A DNA stretch of 63,896 nucleotides, counting the filler, from Octopus bimaculoides (taxonomy: Eukaryota), in assembly GCF_001194135.2 (NCBI RefSeq). It is 9 parts of 9 records of this genome, joined end to end, with 100 filler letters (N's around TTAATTAATTAA, not from the genome) between each part and the next. Parts side by side here need not be neighbours in the genome. Positions count along the whole stretch, not along the records: positions 39,982 to 55,195 come from NC_068983.1; positions 55,296 to 57,172 come from NW_026336583.1; positions 57,273 to 62,747 come from NC_068991.1; 6 more parts are not named here. One strand, written 5' to 3'. Position 1 is the stretch's first letter; each line of letters starts with the position of its first letter. Position numbers and translations under genes: made by a program. The notes beneath the pieces were generated by a model. That model saw only the letters and a program-made list of their open reading frames with translations. It did no database searches and was not told the origin of the DNA. This document shows positions 49,163 to 61,365 of the stretch, in pieces.

Positions 49163-49331
49163 TGAGTACTCCATCGACAGCAGCGGCACTGAGATACAGA
49201 AGGACAAGTATTCCGTTGAGCAATACCAGGTACTGACTTGCCTGGCTCCCGGTTATTAGTCTGCTTTCTTCTAGAGGTATGTCCATGATGATTATCAAAG
49301 CTCCTATGAGGAATATGTTGCTTGCGACGGG
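49163..49331 (-). CDS. Next coding exon (169 nt, phase 1 to phase 2): (T)RRKQHIPHRSFDNHHGHTSRRKQTNNREPGKSVPGIAQRNTCPSVSQCRCCRWST
   Basis: Acceptor ttttcttttgcaaaAG and donor CTCA|GTAAGT. Open in the phase left by the 1980-nt exon, with the same H/R/N/Q composition, ending in a 4-Cys cluster. Confidence 0.6.
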
Positions 49332-50329
49332 CTTTTGCAAAAGAAAATTTTAAGAATGTCTGCTATATTATCATAAAATATATCATAAAGGAATAACAAG
49401 AATTGGAAGAACAAATTAAGAAGCATCTATTATTTCAATTGGCAAATTTTCCTGGAAACTTAACCTGCAAATATTTCTATTTTATTGATAAGCAGGGAAA
49501 TTCCTATTGTCTATTTCTAATGATGCTGTAATTTGTATTGTACCATGTAAAAAGAAGCATGAAACATAATTATGCATTGAGGGAAAATAAAATTCATGCT
49601 TAATATCATTTCCAGATTTTTCAGGGCTGCATTTCCATACATGTTTCTATCTTATAACCACTTCAGCAAAGCAAAGATCTCACTGTACTTGTTGAAGTTG
49701 TGATGAGATAATTATTTATTCTCTTACTTAAAATAAGATTTATTCCTTGTAGAGAAGTATTTGTTTCCTATAAATCTAGAGCTTCAGAGGTTGGAGATAA
49801 ATATCAACCATTTTTATTCATCTTAGTTTGAGAATTGAAGAAAAATTGTACATGATGTATAACTTTCATTGAGAGATTCTAACTACATTTTAACCAAATA
49901 TATTATCAAGAAAAAAATTAAAAAGTTTATGAAAGCTCATTAACACATAACACATAACGAGCAGAAAATGTCTGCTATTGTTACCTCTGATAATATGCTG
50001 TAAAGTGTAAAAGTTGTGCGAATGTGGAGATTTAGAATTGAACAGTGGTTTAAAATGGTTTTCGATAGATCTAATGTTCACTTTCAAATAACTCAAAATT
50101 TGCAATACATTTTGAAATGTAATGTGACACATATATATATATATATAAATATGTTTGTGTTTACATTGTATTGTATTGTGTGTGTGTGTGCATGCACAAG
50201 GGGTGTTCATTAAAGATTTCCCCAGATCTTTACCCTTTGAACGGCACATCGAGAAATTAATTTTTTGTAACTAAACACTTTCAAACTTCAGACACTGATA
50301 GAATGTGTCATATAAAACATCTTTTACTC

Positions 50330-50735
50330 TTCTTTTATCTTTTACTTTTTCCAGTCAATAAACTGCAACCATGCTGGGGAACTGCTTTGGAGGATTTTAG
50401 TTGAATGAATTAACCCCTTTTTTTAAAGTGCTGGTATTTATTCTATTGGTCTGTTTTGCTGAACTGCTAAGTTACAGGGGACATAGACACACCAGCACTG
50501 GTTGCCAAACAGTGGGGGAACTCATACAAAGTCACACACACACACACACACACACACGCAAACACACACACACACGCACACATGACAGGCATCTTTCAGT
50601 TTCCATCTATCAAATCCACTCACAAGGCTTTGGTTGACGCAAGGCTATAGTAGAAAACACTTGCCCAAGGTGCCACACGGTGGGATTCAACACAGAACCA
50701 TGTGATTGGGAAGCAAACTTCTTATCAGCCATGCT
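50330..50735 (-). mobile_element. Near full-length SINE of the ACCTTGGGCAAG family
   Basis: Head, core, internal (CA)n and 3' end all present on the minus strand. Confidence 0.85.
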
Positions 50736-50944
50736 TTACATATACCACTAGGTCATAATCATGATGTGTTGCTTTTTGCAAGTGCTCTACACAATACTTT
50801 ATACACTGTGAGTCACAATGTACTAAGTTACTGTCCTATTTAAAAATTATTTTACACTGGTGTTTGTGTATACAAGCTTACTGTTCTGCCTTATTGTTTT
50901 GTACAGTTTGTGCACTTATTGAACATATTGACTGTGTATACACT

Positions 50945-51351
50945 GTTGTTGTTGGCACTCCGTCGCTTATGATGTTGAGGGTTCCAGTTGATCCGATCAA
51001 CGGAACAGCCTGCTCATGAAATTAACGTGCAAGTGGCTGAGCACTCCACAGACACGTGTACCCTTAACGTAGCTCTCGGGGATATTCAGCGTGACACAAT
51101 GTGACAAGGCTGACCCTTTGAATTACAGGTACAACAGAAACAGGAAGTAAGAGTGAGAGAAAGTTGTGGTGGAAGAGTACAGCAGGGTTCGCCACCATCC
51201 CCTGCCAGAGCCTCGTGGAGCTTTAGGTGTTTTTGCTCAATAAACACTCACAACGCCCGGTCTGGGAATCGAAACCACGATCCTATGACCGCGAGTCCGC
51301 TGCCCTAACCACTGGGCCATCCCTAACCACTGGGCCATTGCGCCTCCACAG
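50945..51351 (-). mobile_element. Young full-length tRNA-derived SINE (OK-like) with a 12-bp TSD
   Basis: TSD TGTGTATACACT at 50933-50944 and 51352-51363; head GTGGAGGCGCAATGGCCCAGTGG, B box GGTTTCGATTCCC, (CAA)n tail; CpGs largely retained. Confidence 0.9.
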
Positions 51352-51939
51352 TGTGTATACACTACATATACTATATATACTATATAAACTATGCTGCTAC
51401 ACATTGCAGTTAATGCACATTGTTCACTGCTTTATTTTCATTATTTCAACTCTCTGCTTCCCCCACCCTCCATGTTATTCCATTACACTTGCCTGACATC
51501 TTTAAAATTTTGTTTTTTCTTTTAATTCTAATCACTCCATAAAGTTCATCCATTATTTTCCTTACACCATGTTTACTTCCTCCTCCTGTGAGTGCATGTT
51601 ATGTTTTTTCTGCAGTTATTCTTTTGCCCATTGCCCTACCGTTACACTCCACACTTAATTCTTCTGACTTTACTCTCACCACCTCTATTAGTATTCACAT
51701 ATATTCACTCTTATAGAATTTTGCCATCCATCCTCCTCACCTTACCTCCCCCAACCTTGTTTCTCTCTGGTTCTGCAATTCAGAGAAAAGAAAAAAAAAA
51801 AAAGAAAAACAAGAAAACAAATTTCATTCAGTAAATGTTAACAAAGACTTTTGTGAAGTGGCTGTGTCTGTGTGTTTTGACAAACTTACTGAAAATTTAA
51901 AATTCTTCTGATAACTGCATAATATAGTAAATGTATCAC

Positions 51940-52260
51940 TTCATCATCATCATCATCGTTGTTTAACGTCCGCTTTCCATGCTAGCATGGGTTGGACGAT
52001 TTGACTGAGGACTGGTGAACCAGATGGCTACACCAGGCTCCAATCTGATTTGGCAGAGTTTCTACAGCTGGATGCCCTTCCTAATGCCAACCACTCCGAG
52101 AGTGTAGTGGGTGCTTTTACATGCCACCAGCACGAAGGCCAGTCAGGCGGTACTGGCAACAGCCACACTCAAAATTGTGTATTTTACGTGCCACCTGCAT
52201 GGGAGCCAGTTCGGCAGCACTGGCAACAATCTCGCTCAATTGTGATCAACTTTCTTGAGA
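51940..52260 (-). mobile_element. (ATG)n-tailed retroposon 3' portion
   Basis: catcatcgttgtttaacgtccgctttccatgctagcatggg; same family as 42284-42456 and 44978-45230. Confidence 0.8.
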
Positions 52261-52612
52261 CTTCTTTTCCATGAATTTTGTCTCCAAAACTCCTTGAGTT
52301 CACATATTTGTATCCTCGAGTAACTTTTACTTATTTATTCATTCATTTAAAACAATGTAGTCATAACACCACATTTATTACTGAAACAATGAAATAAGGA
52401 TACTAAACTTTAAAATGCATACCTACTGACTTATCCATCTGTCTATCTGTTTGTCTTTACACTGGAAGTGAGAATGAGTGTGTGCATGTATGTGCACATC
52501 ATATGTGTCTGTCAATGTTTAGTCATTGTGGATTATTTAAGAGCAAATGAGAAAATGAAAGACCTGAAAAAAGAAAATGTAAAGTAAAACAATTAGAAAA
52601 AAACACACTTAC

Positions 52613-54592
52613 TTTGTTTCCTATCCTTTAAAGCACTAAATTCACTTGAGCTTTCAAAAGGAGCATATCTATCATAAGTTCCAACAAAAAGATTTGGGTT
52701 TGATAACTGTCTATGGTTAGCATCTGTTAAATGTTGGTTTCTATGATCATAATGTTGGTTAATGTGACTGCCAGTCTTGGAATTGCTATTAGTCATTCCA
52801 AGGTGAAAAGTAGCTGTCCTATCACCAGTTGCTTGTTGAACAGATGTACTATCCTCCTTTTGCAGTGACGGCCTGGTATGTTGCCGAATAGAAGGCCTTT
52901 TAAAATTTGATTGATGCCCTTTACGTTTTTGAGTAATACTGTGGGAATTATCTGTATTTTGATTGGTTGTTTTTCTCCTTCTACCATGATGGTGATTGGT
53001 AATATTATCTCTTGTTGAGTAAATTAGATGGCTGTTTGTTTGTTGCTGTGTATTATTTCGGTGGTGATGAAGGTTCTGCTGTTCATTATGTTGAAACCTA
53101 CTGTTATGCCCACTATTTCTGCTGTTATGGTCATGAGTTTCATTGTGAATGTGTTGTATTTCTTCTTTGTTACTAACATCAGGTTGAAACATTTTGAACT
53201 TTATATCAACTGTTGGGACAGTCACTAGTCTTTCCTTTGCAGCAGTTTCCTTGCTTCTATCCCTGTTTCTAAATTTGTTTTTTATATGCCTAGAATTTGG
53301 ATACTTGCCTTGGGAGGTTATGACTTGCTGAGTTGGTGGAAAAATATTAAGTTTTTTTGTTACTTTGAGTTGCTGTCGTTTGGACAAGCTTTCAGTACGT
53401 CCATTTCGTTCATAGCTTGGTGTATTAGTCTGTGCTTCTTTCCTGACAAATTGGTGATCTGGCAATGGAGATTTTTTTGATGAATGACTCTTTTCTCTCC
53501 CTTCTGGAGCTCTTCTATTTTCCTTTTCCCCATGTCTGTATGGTTTCAAATTCTTGTCTGGCTGGGAAGTACTCACTGGTCTGTTTCCAGTAACTTCAAT
53601 TGGTGAGATTTCTTGTTCTCCTTCCATTGTTGAATGATTAACTTCTTTATTCGGAGCTGGAAGACCATCTTCTCCGGCATGTATGAAATGTCCATAGAAA
53701 TTATCTGGTTGGTTACCTATGTGTTTTTCAATTTCAGATGGATACTGACCATTTGGAGTTTCCTGTATAGAACCTTCACCATCTTTTGTGTTATAGTGCT
53801 GACGGTTTTCATAGTAATAATCTTGTCCATATGGCAAATAACCTTCTCCAGGTGGAACCTGGTGGTGAGAACCATGATAACCATTCTCAGTGTCATAAGC
53901 TGGCAGCTGAGAATGAGGGTAACGTAAATCTGGAAGATGATAACGTTCTTCCTGTTCCACCATAGCTGCACCATTATGATTCATTTCATAGTAGCTATCT
54001 TGGTTTAACCTACTTGGAGGTCCAGGAACGTATTGTATATCTCCATTGTGATTAGGAATAACTTTATCTCTTTCTGTACGATCAAAGTGACCAAAATGTG
54101 TTTGAAGATCAGAGTCTGGATGCTTTGGCACACGTTGTCCATTGAGAAAATAGTCACCATAATGTATTTGACCAGATGGGTCTCGATTCAGAACAGGATA
54201 ATACTGATTTTGTCCAAAATTAGTGTTTTGTTGGTTTTCAACTCCCAAATATTCTCTGTCTGTTTCATAACCATAATGTGGAAGTTCGTATTGACTTTTA
54301 TCTGATTTCTGCAAACCAGTTTGTGCTGCATTCTGTTGCTTATATTCACTCAAAAATTGGGGTTCTTTTTCAATTGTATAGTATCTACGAGAGTTGGGAT
54401 GGGAACCATCAGGCTCAACTGTTTCATCAATGTAGCGACTATCAACTTTTTCATTTTTACGATAGTCAACATGACCTGGATACCAGACAACTCCTTCAGG
54501 ACTTAACCATGACTGCCAGTATGCATCAGAACTTCGTACTTTATCATACTGTTTGCCTTCAGTTGGTGTTCTTTCAATTTCACATGATGCAT
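52613..54592 (-). CDS. Large internal coding exon (1980 nt, phase 1 to phase 1) of an unrecognised, probably secreted low-complexity protein
   Basis: Stop-free 697-codon frame in AT-rich DNA. Acceptor ttttatcctttttctttctcaAG before 54592 and donor CAAA|GTAAGT after 52613 trim it to exactly 660 codons. Y/H/Q/N/G-rich, only one Cys seen, no transposon motifs. Confidence 0.8.
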
Positions 54593-55162
54593 CTTGAGAA
54601 AGAAAAAGGATAAAATTAAAGCATGTCTGATGTATGAGTATTGTTATTTTCATATAATTTTCATATCTCCAATCTGAGTCATTCATTTATTCAGATTGAA
54701 AATGAAACAGTAATATATCACTATTAAACAATCAAACTCATCCATTTTTCTAAAAATGGGTCACACAATGATAACACTAACAAAGACAACAACATCAATA
54801 TTGCCAACAATAAGAGAATATAGTAGCCTAACAACATGAGTGAACAAAAATGAGAACTTATCTGCATTATCCTCTTTATGCTATAGTGAGTCTTAAGGCT
54901 ATTGTAAAGTGTGGCACCAATTTTTCCGTTATGGACACTCAAATGAATTCTAAGAATTTAAAAAGTACACTTTCTTCTTAGCCTAAGGACAGCTTCTTGG
55001 CATTTTAGCTAAGATCAAAGTAGTTAAGAATTTTAAAAACTATCATCATGATACATAAATACATACATCAGTCTCTTTTGCTGAACCTCTAAGTTATGGG
55101 GGTCATAAACTCACCAACATTGACTGTCAAGTGATGGTTGGGTGACACAGACACACAAATAC

Positions 55163-55195
<33 letters not shown>

Positions 55196-56859
55196 NNNNN
55201 NNNNNNNNNNNNNNNNNNNNNNNNNNNNNNNNNNNNNNNTTAATTAATTAANNNNNNNNNNNNNNNNNNNNNNNNNNNNNNNNNNNNNNNNNNNNCTATA
55301 TATGTATGTATACAAATTTAAATATTGAGGATGGGATATTTCCATTATAAGGAAAGAAGGCAAAAGAAGTGAATATGATTGGTTCAGAAACATGAAACAC
55401 TTGAATGGAAATGCATGGAGAGGTGGTGGTGGTGGTGGTTGTGGCAATGTTGGAGATGATGTAAAGAAAGAAAGAGAGAATGTAGAATTGGATGGGAGGT
55501 GGGGAGAGGGTAACAGTCTGTGGTAATCTGAGATAGGTGTGTCGATGTAATCTGGCCAACATATACTACAACACAGCAACATATACACACACNNNNNNNN
55601 NNNNNNNNNNNNNNNNNNNNNNNNNNNNNNNNNNNNNNNNNNNNNNNNNNNNNNNNNNNNNNNNNNNNNNNNNNNNNNNNNNNNNNNNNNNNNNNNNNNN
55701 NNNNNNNNNNNNNNNNNNNNNNNNNNNNNNNNNNNNNNNNNNNNNNNNNNNNNNNNNNNNNNNNNNNNNNNNNNNNNNNNNNNNNNNNNNNNNNNNNNNN
55801 NNNNNNNNNNNNNNNNNNNNNNNNNNNNNNNNNNNNNNNNNNNNNNNNNNNNNNNNNNNNNNNNNNNNNNNNNNNNNNNNNNNNNNNNNNNNNNNNNNNN
55901 NNNNNNNNNNNNNNNNNNNNNNNNNNNNNNNNNNNNNNNNNNNNNNNNNNNNNNNNNNNNNNNNNNNNNNNNNNNNNNNNNNNNNNNNNNNNNNNNNNNN
56001 NNNNNNNNNNNNNNNNNNNNNNNNNNNNNNNNNNNNNNNNNNNNNNNNNNNNNNNNNNNNNNNNNNNNNNNNNNNNNNNNNNNNNNNNNNNNNNNNNNNN
56101 NNNNNNNNNNNNNNNNNNNNNNNNNNNNNNNNNNNNNNNNNNNNNNNNNNNNNNNNNNNNNNNNNNNNNNNNNNNNNNNNNNNNNNNNNNNNNNNNNNNN
56201 NNNNNNNNNNNNNNNNNNNNNNNNNNNNNNNNNNNNNNNNNNNNNNNNNNNNNNNNNNNNNNNNNNNNNNNNNNNNNNNNNNNNNNNNNNNNNNNNNNNN
56301 NNNNNNNNNNNNNNNNNNNNNNNNNNNNNNNNNNNNNNNNNNNNNNNNNNNNNNNNNNNNNNNNNNNNNNNNNNNNNNNNNNNNNNNNNNNNNNNNNNGC
56401 ATTTTAATTATCGACCCTTGCATAATAAAAATCAAAATTAATCTCAGCATGATTTGAACTCAGCAGACAAAGAGTCAGTATAAATACCACAAGGTATTAA
56501 GTCCAATGTTCTAACGACTCTATTAATTGATCTTTTTCTTCTTTCAATCAATGAAATTTTTTTAACTGATTTTTAAAAATTTTAATATTAATCTTTGAAT
56601 ATAAATGGAATTGTTCTGGTGATTTCATTTCTATTTTATATCTTGAAGCAAACAAGAAGAAATGTTTAAATATTAAACAATTTGGTGACAACATATATTT
56701 TCTCTCTCAGCACATCTTTATCCTACATCAACATTTTAACGTGCAATGCATTAAATATGTTTTCTCACCATCTTCGATATTATTTATCAGATGGATGGCT
56801 TTTGAGAATTATTTGGTAAATTTAGAAATATTCTTGGAGATTTCTGTGGAGTTCAAATT

Positions 56860-56965
56860 TTGCCGACGTCAACCTTCATCATTTCAGGGTCAATAAAATA
56901 AGTACCTTTTGAGTTCTGGGGTCGATGTAATCAACTTACCTGCTTCCCCAAACTTGTTGGCCTTG
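56860..56965 (+). mobile_element. SINE fragment of the 15 kb family
   Basis: gagttcaaattttgccgacgtcaacc..ggggtcgatgtaatc. Confidence 0.65.
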
Positions 56966-57272
56966 TGCTAATATTTCCTAATCCACCTCATTAAACCCCC
57001 AATACTTCATAATAAACTACACCAAGTTATATCTCCTCACCTAACACAAAACAAAACACACTTCCCCTGCCAAACCCCTTTCTCATACTAACACATCTTT
57101 CTCATTGCTACCCAAACATTGTCCCTTATATTAAAGATAATTTAGATGAACCTACCTTTCGTTAATTAAGCTNNNNNNNNNNNNNNNNNNNNNNNNNNNN
57201 NNNNNNNNNNNNNNNNTTAATTAATTAANNNNNNNNNNNNNNNNNNNNNNNNNNNNNNNNNNNNNNNNNNNN

Positions 57273-57308
<36 letters not shown>

Positions 57309-57400
57309 ACTACATGAATAATATTTTTATAAACAAAACCGAAAGGCTTTGCGAGTTACGAAGAGAAAGCCACTATACATATATATGTGTGTGTTTGTGC

Positions 57401-57431
<31 letters not shown>

Positions 57432-57917
57432 TGTGTGTGTGTGTGTAGACATTTGGTATACTTTTCTTTTGCATCTTAGGGGTGGTGCCGGGAAGTCTTA
57501 ATAACAAAAGAAATTGCTTCTTATATCGAAATACATGTACTCTATATAAATAGTTCTCTTAGTCTCTCATTCCTGACTGAATATAAGCGTACATACACAC
57601 AGACACACACATTTATTGAATTATACATACATACATACATACATATATATATATATACACATACAAATGTATATATACATAATATATCTATATAATAAAA
57701 GGAGAATAAAGAATTTAAACTGAAATATGTTAATTTATTAACATGATATTATATTAACACAATACTTATAATCCCTACAATTGTTTCGATTCAGACTCAA
57801 AACCAATAACAAGTTTATGAAAATTCACTTTCTGGAAACATGTTGAGTACAAATCTCATCAAGGTAAATCAGGACAAAAATTACATGTTCGAAGTTTCAG
57901 ATCCTTAAACAGACTGA

Positions 57918-57984
<67 letters not shown>

Positions 57985-58115
57985 CACACAATTATACGAC
58001 TACCAATACGACGAATACAATGACGATGCGATGTTGATTGATGATGATGATGATGATTTGGACATTATTTTGAGTTCGGTTGGGGAAGACCCACTCAATT
58101 CGTATAAGTACTTAC

Positions 58116-58191
58116 TGAATAAAGTCTGGATGAGAATTGATGGAATACAAGGGAAAATCGAACTACTTGCTGGAATCGCACGCATAACTTT
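58116..58191 (-). CDS. Candidate first coding exon (ATG at 58185) encoding signal-peptide-like MRAIPASSSIFPCIPSILIQTLF
   Basis: Acceptor acttctcacAG and donor TTCA|GTAAGT. Ends in phase 1; splicing to 54592 gives ...IQTLFNASC-EIER, a hydrophobic core plus an A-x-C cleavage-like site. Separated from the large exon by gaps and two linkers. Confidence 0.5.
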
Positions 58192-59399
58192 CTGTGAGAA
58201 GTCTGAATTATCCTTAGGTATCCAGACTTCATGCAACACTCTCTTCTTCATCATAATTTCGTACTCTTTCTCCTCCTCTTCTCCTTCCTTCCTCCCACAC
58301 TTTCTCTTTTTTCTTCTTTTCATCCTCACTTTCCTCTCCTTAATCTTTCTTCCCTTGCGTTAATAATAATAGTTTCTCTAAGAGCCACCGAACAATTTTC
58401 AAAAAAGAAAAGGAGTAACCTGCTCAAAATATAGTGCATAAAGTGTCATGATATTAACAATACTATCTTTCACAATAATTATTGCGACATAATCATCCGG
58501 CTTATTGAAAAATACATGCCGAATGTACAATGTGTAATTCAGAAATAATGAGTTCAAGTCCAGTCCAATTTAGACTTGCATTATTTTATTTTGTCTGCAC
58601 ACCGTAATTCTATACACATGCTGGTTCTGATAGCCCTGTTATTTACTTAGCAGGTCTAAACGAAGGCCTTATAATTATGGTCATTTAGAGTCCAGTATAA
58701 TAGTATTGCAGAGAAATCATATATTCCGAAAGTAACTTTACACAGTAAACACTAACAATTTTATTTGAAACAAACGATTATTGTAATTCACCCTTTTGCT
58801 GACCAGCATTGACCCAAGGGAACTCAAGGAGACTAACGCTGTGTTTCAAGACTTTCAGAAATGGTCATTTAAGAACATTTATATATATATATATATNNNN
58901 NNNNNNNNNNNNNNNNNNNNNNNNNNNNNNNNNNNNNNNNNNNNNNNNNNNNNNNNNNNNNNNNNNNNNNNNNNNNNNNNNNNNNNNNNNNNNNNNNNNN
59001 NNNNNNNNNNNNNNNNNNNNNNNNNNNNNNNNNNNNNNNNNNNNNNNNNNNNNNNNNNNNNNNNNNNNNNNNNNNNNNNNNNNNNNNNNNNNNNNNNNNN
59101 NNNNNNNNNNNNNNNNNNNNNNNNNNNNNNNNNNNNNNNNNNNNNNNNNNNNNNNNNNNNNNNNNNATATTATATATATATACCGTATTCAATGGTATAG
59201 AAGACACTTTTTTCCCCAGAAAATAAGTGTGAAACAAAAGAAAAAAAAAGAAATCACCTCGGTCCCCGTACGGTCAAGTGCGTCTCCGATAAGCTTTAAT
59301 CTCCTAAAATCTTTTGTGAGCCTAATATGTGTCAAATAAGGGATATATCCATATATATTATCGTTTATGTTCTGCTTGCTTACCACAACCGATTGAGAT

Positions 59400-59690
59400 T
59401 CGGTGTTGCTGTGTTTACCTCCCCGTAACGTAGCCATTCGTCAAGGAGAAAGCGATAAGGTAAATATTAGGCTTAGAAAAACGTACTTGGATCGATTTAG
59501 CCGACTAAACCATTCGACGGCGGTGCCCCAGCATGACTGCAGAAGAGTTTACTTCGAACGAATCGTTCCTAGTACCTTTTATATCTCTTTATAACCTGCC
59601 AATTACTTTATCGGTATATTTTGTCGAGCCGTCAAGTTATGGAGACGTAAACAATCTCAGTCGGTAGCGGACAACAAATACAGGCACAAT
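59400..59690. mobile_element. Two SINE 3' halves in inverted orientation (+ 59400-59540, - 59560-59690)
   Basis: gtttacctccccgtaac..ccagcatgactgcag versus aagttatggagacgtaaac; both diverged. Confidence 0.55.
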
Positions 59691-59724
59691 AACATGAACA
59701 CACACATACACCCCCACACACACA

Positions 59725-59784
<60 letters not shown>

Positions 59785-59832
59785 CGTCTGTCTGTCTGTG
59801 TATCTATCTCTCTCCCTCTCTCTCTCTCTCTC

Positions 59833-59899
<67 letters not shown>

Positions 59900-60490
59900 T
59901 AATATTATCTCAGTTATTAAAACTTTCGATAATTTGAATACGTTAATGGTTACCAGGGGTAGCAATGTATCACGTTATATATTATATATATATATGTGTA
60001 TATGTGTGTGTGTGTATATATATATCATATAGAGATAGATATTATTATATATATACATTCATACATATATATACATCCACACTCACGCATATAAGCGTGT
60101 GCAAGGATGTGTATGTGTCCATGTGTAATATATGTACTTCAATGATTGTGTACTGTGAGTGTGTGTGTGCATGTATGTGTGTGTGTCTGTGTGTGTCTGC
60201 CTGTATATTATATTTTAATCGAAATTGAAACTTTATAAGTGCAACTCTGAGTTTCAAATTCCTTCACGTGTCACAATGAATTAACTTTCATCGTCTAACG
60301 AGGAGTATATATTATGTTCGTACACATTTATATAGTTAGACATACACACACGTATGTAGTGCATACACCCATACCTACCTACATACATACGTACACATTC
60401 ATACAAGTACACACATGCATACACACGTATTTAAATAAATAATTAAATAAATAAACAAAAGTGATTCACGCACGCAAACAGGAACACACG

Positions 60491-60528
<38 letters not shown>

Positions 60529-61018
60529 CACACACGTACACCTACATATTCGGGAATACACCTAGTTTTAATTATCGAGATACACTTAATTCAAATAACT
60601 TCAATGCATGTAAAATGTGAACATAGTAATTTTCACATAGCAAGAGCCGAAAAATGCCGCTGGGCATTTTGTTCGACACGCTGAGCAGTTCTTCATCTCG
60701 TCTGATATGATGAGGATTTCTTTTGATAAGAAACAGTGCTCTGTTCCAAAGGTTCCACAAATCCTTTCTGGAGTAAGGACCACGTACGGAAATAGCTTGG
60801 AATGCAAAAGTCTGAAGCTATGTAATCTCTTGCTAAAAAAATAAGAACCTTGGAGATCAATATGGAGGTGTGGGTTGATATTTTTAATAAAACACCTTGA
60901 CAATCTGCTTTTCAGGATATCTTAGATGAAAGTACATCACTGAATGAAACTCGAAAGAGGGCAGCAAAAAAATTATTATATCGCACGTTCGGACGACATG
61001 CCTTCGCCAATAACGTAC

Positions 61019-61135
61019 CTCTACTCAACTACCGAACTCTCACTTCCGACGACTCAACAGAACTCGACGTCTAGTCTACCAGTTCGATCTATGCGACGCT
61101 TCTACGACTAGCTGCTATCACGTCCACTATTTATA
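61019..61135 (-). promoter_or_regulatory. Candidate TATA box (TATAAATAG, 61135-61127) followed by a short non-coding first exon ending at donor GAG|GTACGT (GT at 61018)
   Basis: CpG-rich non-repetitive patch at about 60980-61210. No ATG in the putative exon, and an in-frame TGA lies upstream of the 58185 ATG when the two are spliced. Confidence 0.35.
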
Positions 61136-61365
61136 CGTTTCGGACTAGCCTACTTATCGTCTGGGAGCGTCCACACAACAGAGACACTGGCCCAAAGTGA
61201 CGCACAGGGTGACAGAAACCAGAAACCAGAACGATGTAGCTCAGGAGCAAACTTCTTACCACATACCCACGCTTGCAAAATAACATTAACTAATTATAAT
61301 TAACTAATTATCATTATAAAATAATTTAAAGAATTATGACATTATTTTAATCGCACTAGACAACG

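What the first reader, a model, noticed from the sequence alone, without database searches (positions are those of the whole stretch)
49163..61135. Unannotated-looking secreted protein gene reconstructed from splice phases
Seen: four segments with canonical splice signals fit in phase. These are a non-coding exon after TATAAATAG, a 76-nt exon whose first ATG opens a signal-peptide-like sequence, a 1980-nt exon and a 169-nt exon ending CPSVSQCRCCRW. Together they give about 740 codons with no domain I recognise. The signal exon and the Cys exon appear in the ORF track only inside or beside other frames. Inference: a lineage-restricted secreted protein, either a structural matrix protein or a precursor of a Cys-rich ligand.
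Basis: partly seen in the sequence, partly recalled or inferred. Interest (0 to 1): 0.75.

Follow-up and report, generated by a model that had tools for sequence, protein, structure and literature searches.

The report
Limpet shell-matrix relative kept in octopus
The proposed gene was stitched from two unlinked parts of the genome; the real octopus gene, annotated but unnamed, encodes a likely secreted, predicted mostly disordered protein whose 12-cysteine domain is shared with a minor limpet shell-matrix protein, so it likely helps build an extracellular matrix in an animal without a true shell.

Summary
The four-exon model is a chimera across two pack joints. 'Exons 1-2' lie on C11 and exons 3-4 on C3; the 'TATA exon' is a solo LTR.

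The C3 exons are real and spliced. RNA reads join them to each other and to a different signal exon 26 kb upstream. They belong to Octopus bimaculoides LOC106882314 (877 aa, five coding exons). The 'CPSVSQCRCCRW' exon is not terminal: it opens a 12-cysteine domain (719-806), predicted as one long beta-hairpin.

The domain has no Pfam match. Its cysteine spacing is kept in four other cephalopod-type proteins and, except the last gap, in Lottia gigantea 236812. That protein is an accepted minor limpet shell-matrix component found at about full length.

Best reading: a secreted matrix protein with an EMI-like disulfide-stapled hairpin. EMI membership is unproven, and the octopus tissue is unknown.

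The parts
52613..54592 (-). Coding exon 2 of LOC106882314 (1980 nt, phase 1-1, residues 17-677): acidic Tyr-rich then basic His/Asn/Gln-rich region, predicted disordered. G000:C3:122567922-122565943
49163..49331 (-). Coding exon 3 (169 nt, phase 1-2, residues 677-733), with the first four Cys of the 12-Cys domain; ends in a donor, not a stop. The domain continues outside the window in exons at C3:122545805-122545695 and C3:122544847 to the stop at 122544525
54593..55195 (-). 3' end of intron 1 (26,049 nt). The true signal exon (49 coding nt) lies outside the window at C3:122594020-122593972
55196..55295 (.). Pack joint (C3 | C41726), not genomic
57173..57272 (.). Pack joint (C41726 | C11), not genomic
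58116..58191 (-). Whether it is an exon of any gene was not tested
60974..61180 (-).

Best explanation
The real gene is the spliced five-coding-exon C3 gene LOC106882314, whose 877-aa product is likely secreted and likely works uncut as an extracellular-matrix scaffold, with a predicted disulfide-stapled beta-hairpin (residues 719-806, likely EMI-like) as its conserved binding module. The long predicted-disordered part (acidic and Tyr-rich at 20-300, basic and His-rich at 301-715) and the Arg-rich tail would supply bulk, charge and cross-linkable residues. The hairpin would dock on partner matrix proteins or other copies. The ancestral mollusc protein likely had the hairpin plus triple-CC modules and reached the shell matrix; octopods lost those modules but kept the hairpin. 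Shown: exon structure, two junctions in RNA, conservation, the limpet proteomic record. Inferred: secretion, disorder, fold, disulfides, partners, matrix role in octopus.
For: Five C3 exons rebuild P0002 letter for letter; RNA supports both junctions of exon 2. Hydrophobic N-terminus in P0002, P0003 and the distant P0007. The domain is 85% identical to Argonauta and 74% to P0007, against 39-47% and 17-35% for the long region. Cys spacing 5,1,0,12,12,7,18,8,2,0,11 holds in P0002, P0005, P0007 and P0008; Lottia differs only in the last gap, 8. Octopus and Lottia cores are 30 of 76 identical without gaps, 19 of 65 at non-Cys positions; profile E = 4e-9. Lottia 236812 is an accepted shell-matrix identification with 15 peptides (PMC4094399 Tables) and up to 20 peptides in PMC3374290. 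All 20 peptides of soluble matrix C, starting from residue 34 to 920 and including three from the domain, occur in slice 3, which the paper equates with about 103 kDa; the protein is 107.6 kDa. AlphaFold2 gives strands 15-47 and 50-82 of the fragment, block pLDDT 74-91 over 21-70.
Against: No octopus tissue, protein or function data were obtained; the RNA runs are coded and depth was low (86 and 181 reads laid). The limpet protein is very minor (0.0007% iBAQ, soluble fraction only in Table S2), a level shared with intracellular by-catch such as malate dehydrogenase and porin at 0.0006%; the authors warn of such occlusion. The Lottia model shows no obvious signal peptide, shares only the hairpin with octopus, and has it near the N-terminus. 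Dibasic sites lie within 60 residues upstream of the domain in 5 of 5 proteins. The model is weak overall (mean pLDDT 58.9, pTM 0.30, six sequences). SignalP and a real disorder predictor were not run; only hydropathy and charge proxies were.
Confidence: 0.55

Rival explanations
1. Proprotein for a diffusible Cys-rich ligand: convertases cut at dibasic sites and release the 12-Cys hairpin, with or without the basic tail, as a signalling molecule.
For: Only the domain is strongly conserved. RR or KR sites lie upstream in 5 of 5 proteins. A long variable pro-region before a conserved C-terminal Cys domain is the layout of growth-factor precursors (own knowledge).
Against: No R-x-[KR]-R site in P0002, P0003 or P0007, and the dibasic sites are not at a fixed position. 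The limpet domain peptides run with both ends of the protein at about full length. In P0007, P0008 and Lottia the domain is internal.
Confidence: 0.2
2. Secreted mucus or surface-defence protein (cationic, microbe- or polyanion-binding) that reaches the limpet shell only as by-catch from extrapallial fluid.
For: Very low abundance in shell; basic C-terminal half and tail, pI 10-12; di-Cys modules in relatives recall galaxins, which appear in squid symbiosis papers (search listing only).
Against: No Pfam match of any kind, galaxin included, for P0007-P0010. Its identifiers are not in the O. vulgaris ink proteome supplement (weak, depends on the database used). Octopods lack the di-Cys modules.
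Confidence: 0.2
3. The first reader's four-exon, about 740-codon gene exists as drawn.
For: Splice phases fit and the joined frame is open.
Against: Segments lie on C11 and C3 with pack joints between. RNA uses another first exon. The 'promoter exon' is an LTR. The last segment has no stop.
Confidence: 0.01

Closest known systems
Octopus bimaculoides LOC106882314 (XP_014788433.1); O. vulgaris CAI9720399.1, O. sinensis LOC115209349, Argonauta hians GAB1600250.1
   Same: It is this gene: five C3 exons translate to the 877-aa record exactly.
   Different: Annotated only as uncharacterized; no domain or function named, and no main-text mention found.
Lottia gigantea LOTGIDRAFT_236812 (XP_009066184.1), minor shell-matrix protein
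   Same: Same 12-Cys domain. Shares CC-x(9-16)-CC-x(10-16)-CC modules with the unnamed P0007-P0009 by pattern (best BLAST E only 0.009).
   Different: Domain at 133-217 of 957, followed by at least eight triple-CC modules that octopods lack; no similarity to the long octopus region; no clear signal peptide in the model.
EMI domain (Pfam PF07546; EMILIN/multimerin, EGFL7, MEGF10/Draper types)
   Same: About 80-90 residues, two long antiparallel strands (predicted), Cys pair at the tip, CC plus a last Cys at the base. A phase-2 intron lies 22 codons before the CC, as in the octopus EMI gene on C2 (22) and close to two others (20). EMI clusters are 2 of 10 Atlas structure rows, under the bar.
   Different: 12 Cys instead of three disulfides; near the C-terminus in octopus; CCP[S/T/K] instead of CC[P/H]G; no Pfam hit; sequence scores against two octopus EMI domains are at or near chance.
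Galaxin-type di-cysteine repeat proteins (coral skeletal matrix; lead from scan note e1-2794705, papers seen as listings only)
   Same: Secreted, CC-doublet modules, matrix context; applies to the Lottia and P0007-P0009 relatives only.
   Different: No Pfam match; the octopus protein has no such modules.

Membership tests
EMI domain (PF07546) | Matches the Pfam EMI profile | tested here: not met
   No EMI row for any member at E<=10; the PF07546 genome search gave 4 matches, none at this locus (exon splitting lowers its power).
EMI domain (PF07546) | Sequence similarity to real EMI domains above chance | tested here: inconclusive
   Profile score 1.2 bits, reached by 345 of 1000 shuffles. Six global alignments z -0.7 to 2.3, against 6.2 for EMI vs EMI; hhalign probability under 1%. 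Only two EMI sequences were available.
EMI domain (PF07546) | Cys-rich with three disulfide bonds (PMC11949838) | tested here: inconclusive
   12 conserved Cys. Six can be placed on an EMI-like pattern (C728, C754, C762, C793, C794, C806) by inference; disulfides were not read from coordinates.
EMI domain (PF07546) | Single copy at the N-terminus (PMC11949838) | tested here: not met
   Single copy, but at 719-806 of 877 in octopus and internal in P0007/P0008; near the N-terminus only in Lottia.
EMI domain (PF07546) | Two long antiparallel beta-strands (PMC11990869, predicted for MMRN1) | tested here: met
   Predicted only: strands 15-47 and 50-82 of the fragment.
EMI domain (PF07546) | Fold match to a solved EMI structure | tested here: inconclusive
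   cannot decide: a real octopus EMI exon finds no EMI chain in the PDB either, and PMC11990869 states that no crystal structure exists.
EMI domain (PF07546) | C1-XXXX-[S/T] O-fucose motif (partly conserved, PMC11949838) | tested here: inconclusive
   C727+5 is Thr in the four cephalopod-type domains but Met in Lottia, and it fails if C728 is C1.
Molluscan shell-matrix protein | Protein detected in a cleaned biomineral matrix | not testable with these tools
   Met for the Lottia homologue at 0.0007%; no data for the octopus protein.
Galaxin / di-Cys repeat proteins | Tandem di-Cys repeats | tested here: not met
   P0002 has only two CC pairs, both inside the hairpin domain; no triple-CC match elsewhere in G000.
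Furin-processed growth-factor precursor | Conserved R-x-[K/R]-R site before the Cys domain | tested here: not met
   None in P0002, P0003 or P0007; one far upstream in P0005. Only scattered dibasic sites.
   3 of 3 fetched pairs flank integrase frames; RT in 2 of 3; RT-RNaseH-integrase order seen in L058. TG..CA ends in 2 of 2 other copies, TG..TA in the window copy.

The most novel reading that the evidence does not exclude
An undescribed mollusc family built on a 12-cysteine, six-disulfide long hairpin, at least as old as the gastropod-cephalopod split. It began as a shell-field secretion and is still used in coleoids to build shell remnants or other hard tissues (stylet, gladius, cuttlebone, statolith). 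Loss of its triple-CC modules in octopods would track shell loss, making it a molecular marker of the vestigial shell.
Probability: 0.2. Interest if true: 0.65.

Novelty: new variant of a known kind. Interest (0 to 1): 0.36.

Why it matters
The finding as written is an artefact of the packed window, and the true gene is already modelled by NCBI. What remains is modest but real: a conserved 12-Cys domain with no Pfam family that links an orphan-looking octopus protein to a limpet shell-matrix protein. Retention of shell-matrix genes in shell-less octopods is already reported in general (PMC9635652, passages). This family adds a case without a named domain, with a lineage-specific loss of modules, and gives a simple probe for what such retained genes do.

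Tried and rejected
Run search: no RNA holder listed on record; raw RNA runs were laid instead. One lay over the exon 2-3 region was not carried out, so exon 3 itself, exons 4-5 and the C11 segment have no read coverage here.

Pfam gave nothing useful. PDB sequence searches gave only chance hits (S19, SMAD MH1, S12; E>=0.28). Foldseek PDB and viral had no match at E<=0.001; the top PDB rows were unrelated long-hairpin pore stems with TM<=0.23, rejected. VIA wide best Z 2.8. These blanks show neither a new fold nor a different one.

Atlas feature searches gave no usable hit. Structure rows were all under the bar: EMI in 2 of 10 for octopus, 0 of 10 for Lottia. Homodimer prediction of the domain: no answer. 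No paralogue in G000. The first EMI exon of the L044 gene was not found in 60 kb upstream, so only two full EMI controls were built.

No bivalve or other gastropod hit among 7 proteins at E<=0.001. The profile had four close sequences and no second round was allowed, so absence is not shown. Proteins over 1535 aa were not covered by the word searches.

Identifier searches in main texts were blank. Supplements without hits: PMC9635652, PMC13076209 (one scanned file unread), PMC8700984, PMC10142993. Not seen: the .doc accepted-protein tables of PMC3374290 and the bioRxiv argonaut eggcase supplements, which could hold this protein.
Full report
1. Observation. The window, however, has pack joints at 55196-55295 and 57173-57272. 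The 1980-nt exon is G000:C3:122565943-122567922. Window 55296-57172 is contig C41726. The 58.1-kb and 61.1-kb segments are on C11 at about 3.31 Mb. The model is a chimera. Its apparent fit is cheap: 21 such ATG-to-phase-1-donor hydrophobic segments, the true exon among them, occur in 356 kb of strand around the gene.

2. It matches 40 scored places in the genome, the 39 others at 79-86% identity. It sits in a 207-bp element at 60974-61180 whose two inspected relatives end TG...CA. In three fetched regions, two direct copies flank frames matching integrase (3 of 3), reverse transcriptase (2 of 3) and RNase H (1 of 3). It is a solo LTR, which explains the TATA-like motif (inference from general LTR anatomy).

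3. The real gene. The large exon is 100% identical to O. bimaculoides LOC106882314, 877 aa, with relatives in O. vulgaris, O. sinensis and Argonauta hians. Five C3 coding exons (49, 1980, 169, 111 nt and a last exon; introns 26,049, 3,281, 16,687 and 847 nt) translate to that record exactly. About 6% of each of two raw RNA runs was read; 86 and 181 reads were laid, covering the exon, with zero depth in the outermost intron bins. At 52613, 10 and 6 reads continue into the 169-nt exon. At 54592, 5 reads of X21 and one contig each of X14 and X15 continue with the last 30 bases of the C3 signal exon; X20 lists no row there. One minor X15 contig runs into intron 2. The 169-nt exon ends in a donor.

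4. Anatomy. The N-terminus is hydrophobic (9-residue mean 2.77); SignalP was not run. Residues 20-300 are acidic (pI 5.2, 10.7% Tyr), 301-715 basic (pI 10.2, 8.4% His), and the tail 816-877 is 26% Arg. All three score as unfolded on a charge-hydropathy proxy. Twelve of the 13 Cys lie in 719-806. This domain is 85% identical to Argonauta and 74% to the unnamed P0007, against 39-47% and 17-35% upstream. P0007-P0009 are unnamed records; I take them for squid- or cuttlefish-like from their divergence alone. Short upstream motifs are shared with P0007.

5. Reach of the family. A profile of four domains found 7 proteins at E<=0.001 among 1.84 billion; six are cephalopod-type and one, at 4e-9, is Lottia gigantea LOTGIDRAFT_236812. 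Cys spacing is identical except the last gap; the core is 30 of 76 identical without gaps. Lottia has at least eight triple-CC modules and P0007-P0009 have two each. The octopod proteins have none, and none was found elsewhere in G000. The module likeness is by pattern (best E 0.009).

6. The limpet clue. I read supplement rows of PMC4094399 and PMC3374290, and passages plus section 7 of the latter. Lotgi1|236812 is an accepted shell-matrix identification: 15 peptides, emPAI 1.3 soluble, none insoluble, 0.0007% of total. In the 2012 tables it has 1, 3, 13, 17 and 20 peptides in five protein tables. In soluble matrix C (24 h hypochlorite with ultrasound), all 20 peptides, starting from residue 34 to 920 and including three from the domain, occur in slice 3. 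The paper ties that slice to about 103 kDa. So the 107.6-kDa protein is present uncut. Against over-reading: the abundance equals that of intracellular by-catch, the authors warn of occlusion, and the Lottia model lacks an obvious signal peptide.

7. Fold and EMI. AlphaFold2 predicts one long hairpin, confident in the middle and poor at the ends. By register, C754-C762 and C741-C781 could pair across the strands (inference; coordinates not seen). This works like an EMI domain, described as a single N-terminal Cys-rich interaction module with three disulfides (PMC11949838, section 4 and passages) and two antiparallel strands (PMC11990869, passages). For homology: a phase-2 intron 22 codons before the CC, as in the octopus EMI gene on C2, with 20 in two others. 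My rough after-the-fact chance estimate is about 2%. The domain's other intron has no EMI counterpart. EMI clusters were 2 of 10 sub-threshold Atlas rows for octopus and 0 of 10 for Lottia. Against: no Pfam hit, chance-level sequence scores, 12 Cys, C-terminal position. I do not file it as EMI; I put common descent at about 0.5.

8. Mechanism. Most likely (0.55) a secreted, uncut matrix protein: the disulfide-stapled hairpin binds partners, while the charged disordered chain gives bulk or cross-links. Only gene structure, expression, conservation and the limpet record are shown.

9. Novelty. The gene model is known. Its identifiers and those of the homologues gave no main-text hit, and four supplement sets and one preprint text were blank; unread supplements may bear on this. 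Retention of shell-matrix genes in O. bimaculoides is already stated in PMC9635652 (passages). The scan holds no note on this sequence or place. The link between this octopus orphan, an unclassified 12-Cys domain and a limpet shell protein was not found in those searches. Verdict: artefactual model, real gene, new variant of a known kind, interest 0.36.

Noticed in passing
G000:C3:122570845-122570999 (L002, L009), intron 1: Inverted 155-bp copy of part of exon 2 (about window 53403-53557, 90% identical), flanked by a short direct repeat. It could pair with the exon in pre-mRNA; no editing-type change was listed there at depth about 10-20.
   Followed up: partly
G000:C3:122544525 and downstream (L029): After the TGA stop the frame stays open for 69 codons. 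Unnamed relative P0006 has Trp at this position and a matching extension, with two frame-keeping gaps. Either a recent stop, read-through or editing, or plain UTR conservation; untested.
   Followed up: partly
window 53021: A>G on the + strand in 4 of 13 reads of X20 only; T>C on the transcript, so likely an allele and not A-to-I editing.
   Followed up: no
window 58116-58191 (C11): Good splice signals and two open frames; it may be an exon of an unrelated C11 gene. No long gene-like frame was evident in 70 kb around it.
   Followed up: partly
G000:C1:183633977-183679621 (L050, L041) and C2:130027897-130037606 (L042, L043): Two octopus EMI domains, each split by a phase-2 intron just after the hairpin-tip Cys; used as controls.
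   Followed up: partly
L058, L059, L060: Three two-LTR Ty3/gypsy-type elements of the family whose solo LTR lies at window 60974-61180, with fragmented pol frames.
   Followed up: partly
window 56460-57100 (C41726): Made of dispersed repeats, 44 matches in the genome.
   Followed up: no
P0005 residues about 540-575: Argonauta-specific tandem repeat of about 11 residues in the disordered region.
   Followed up: no
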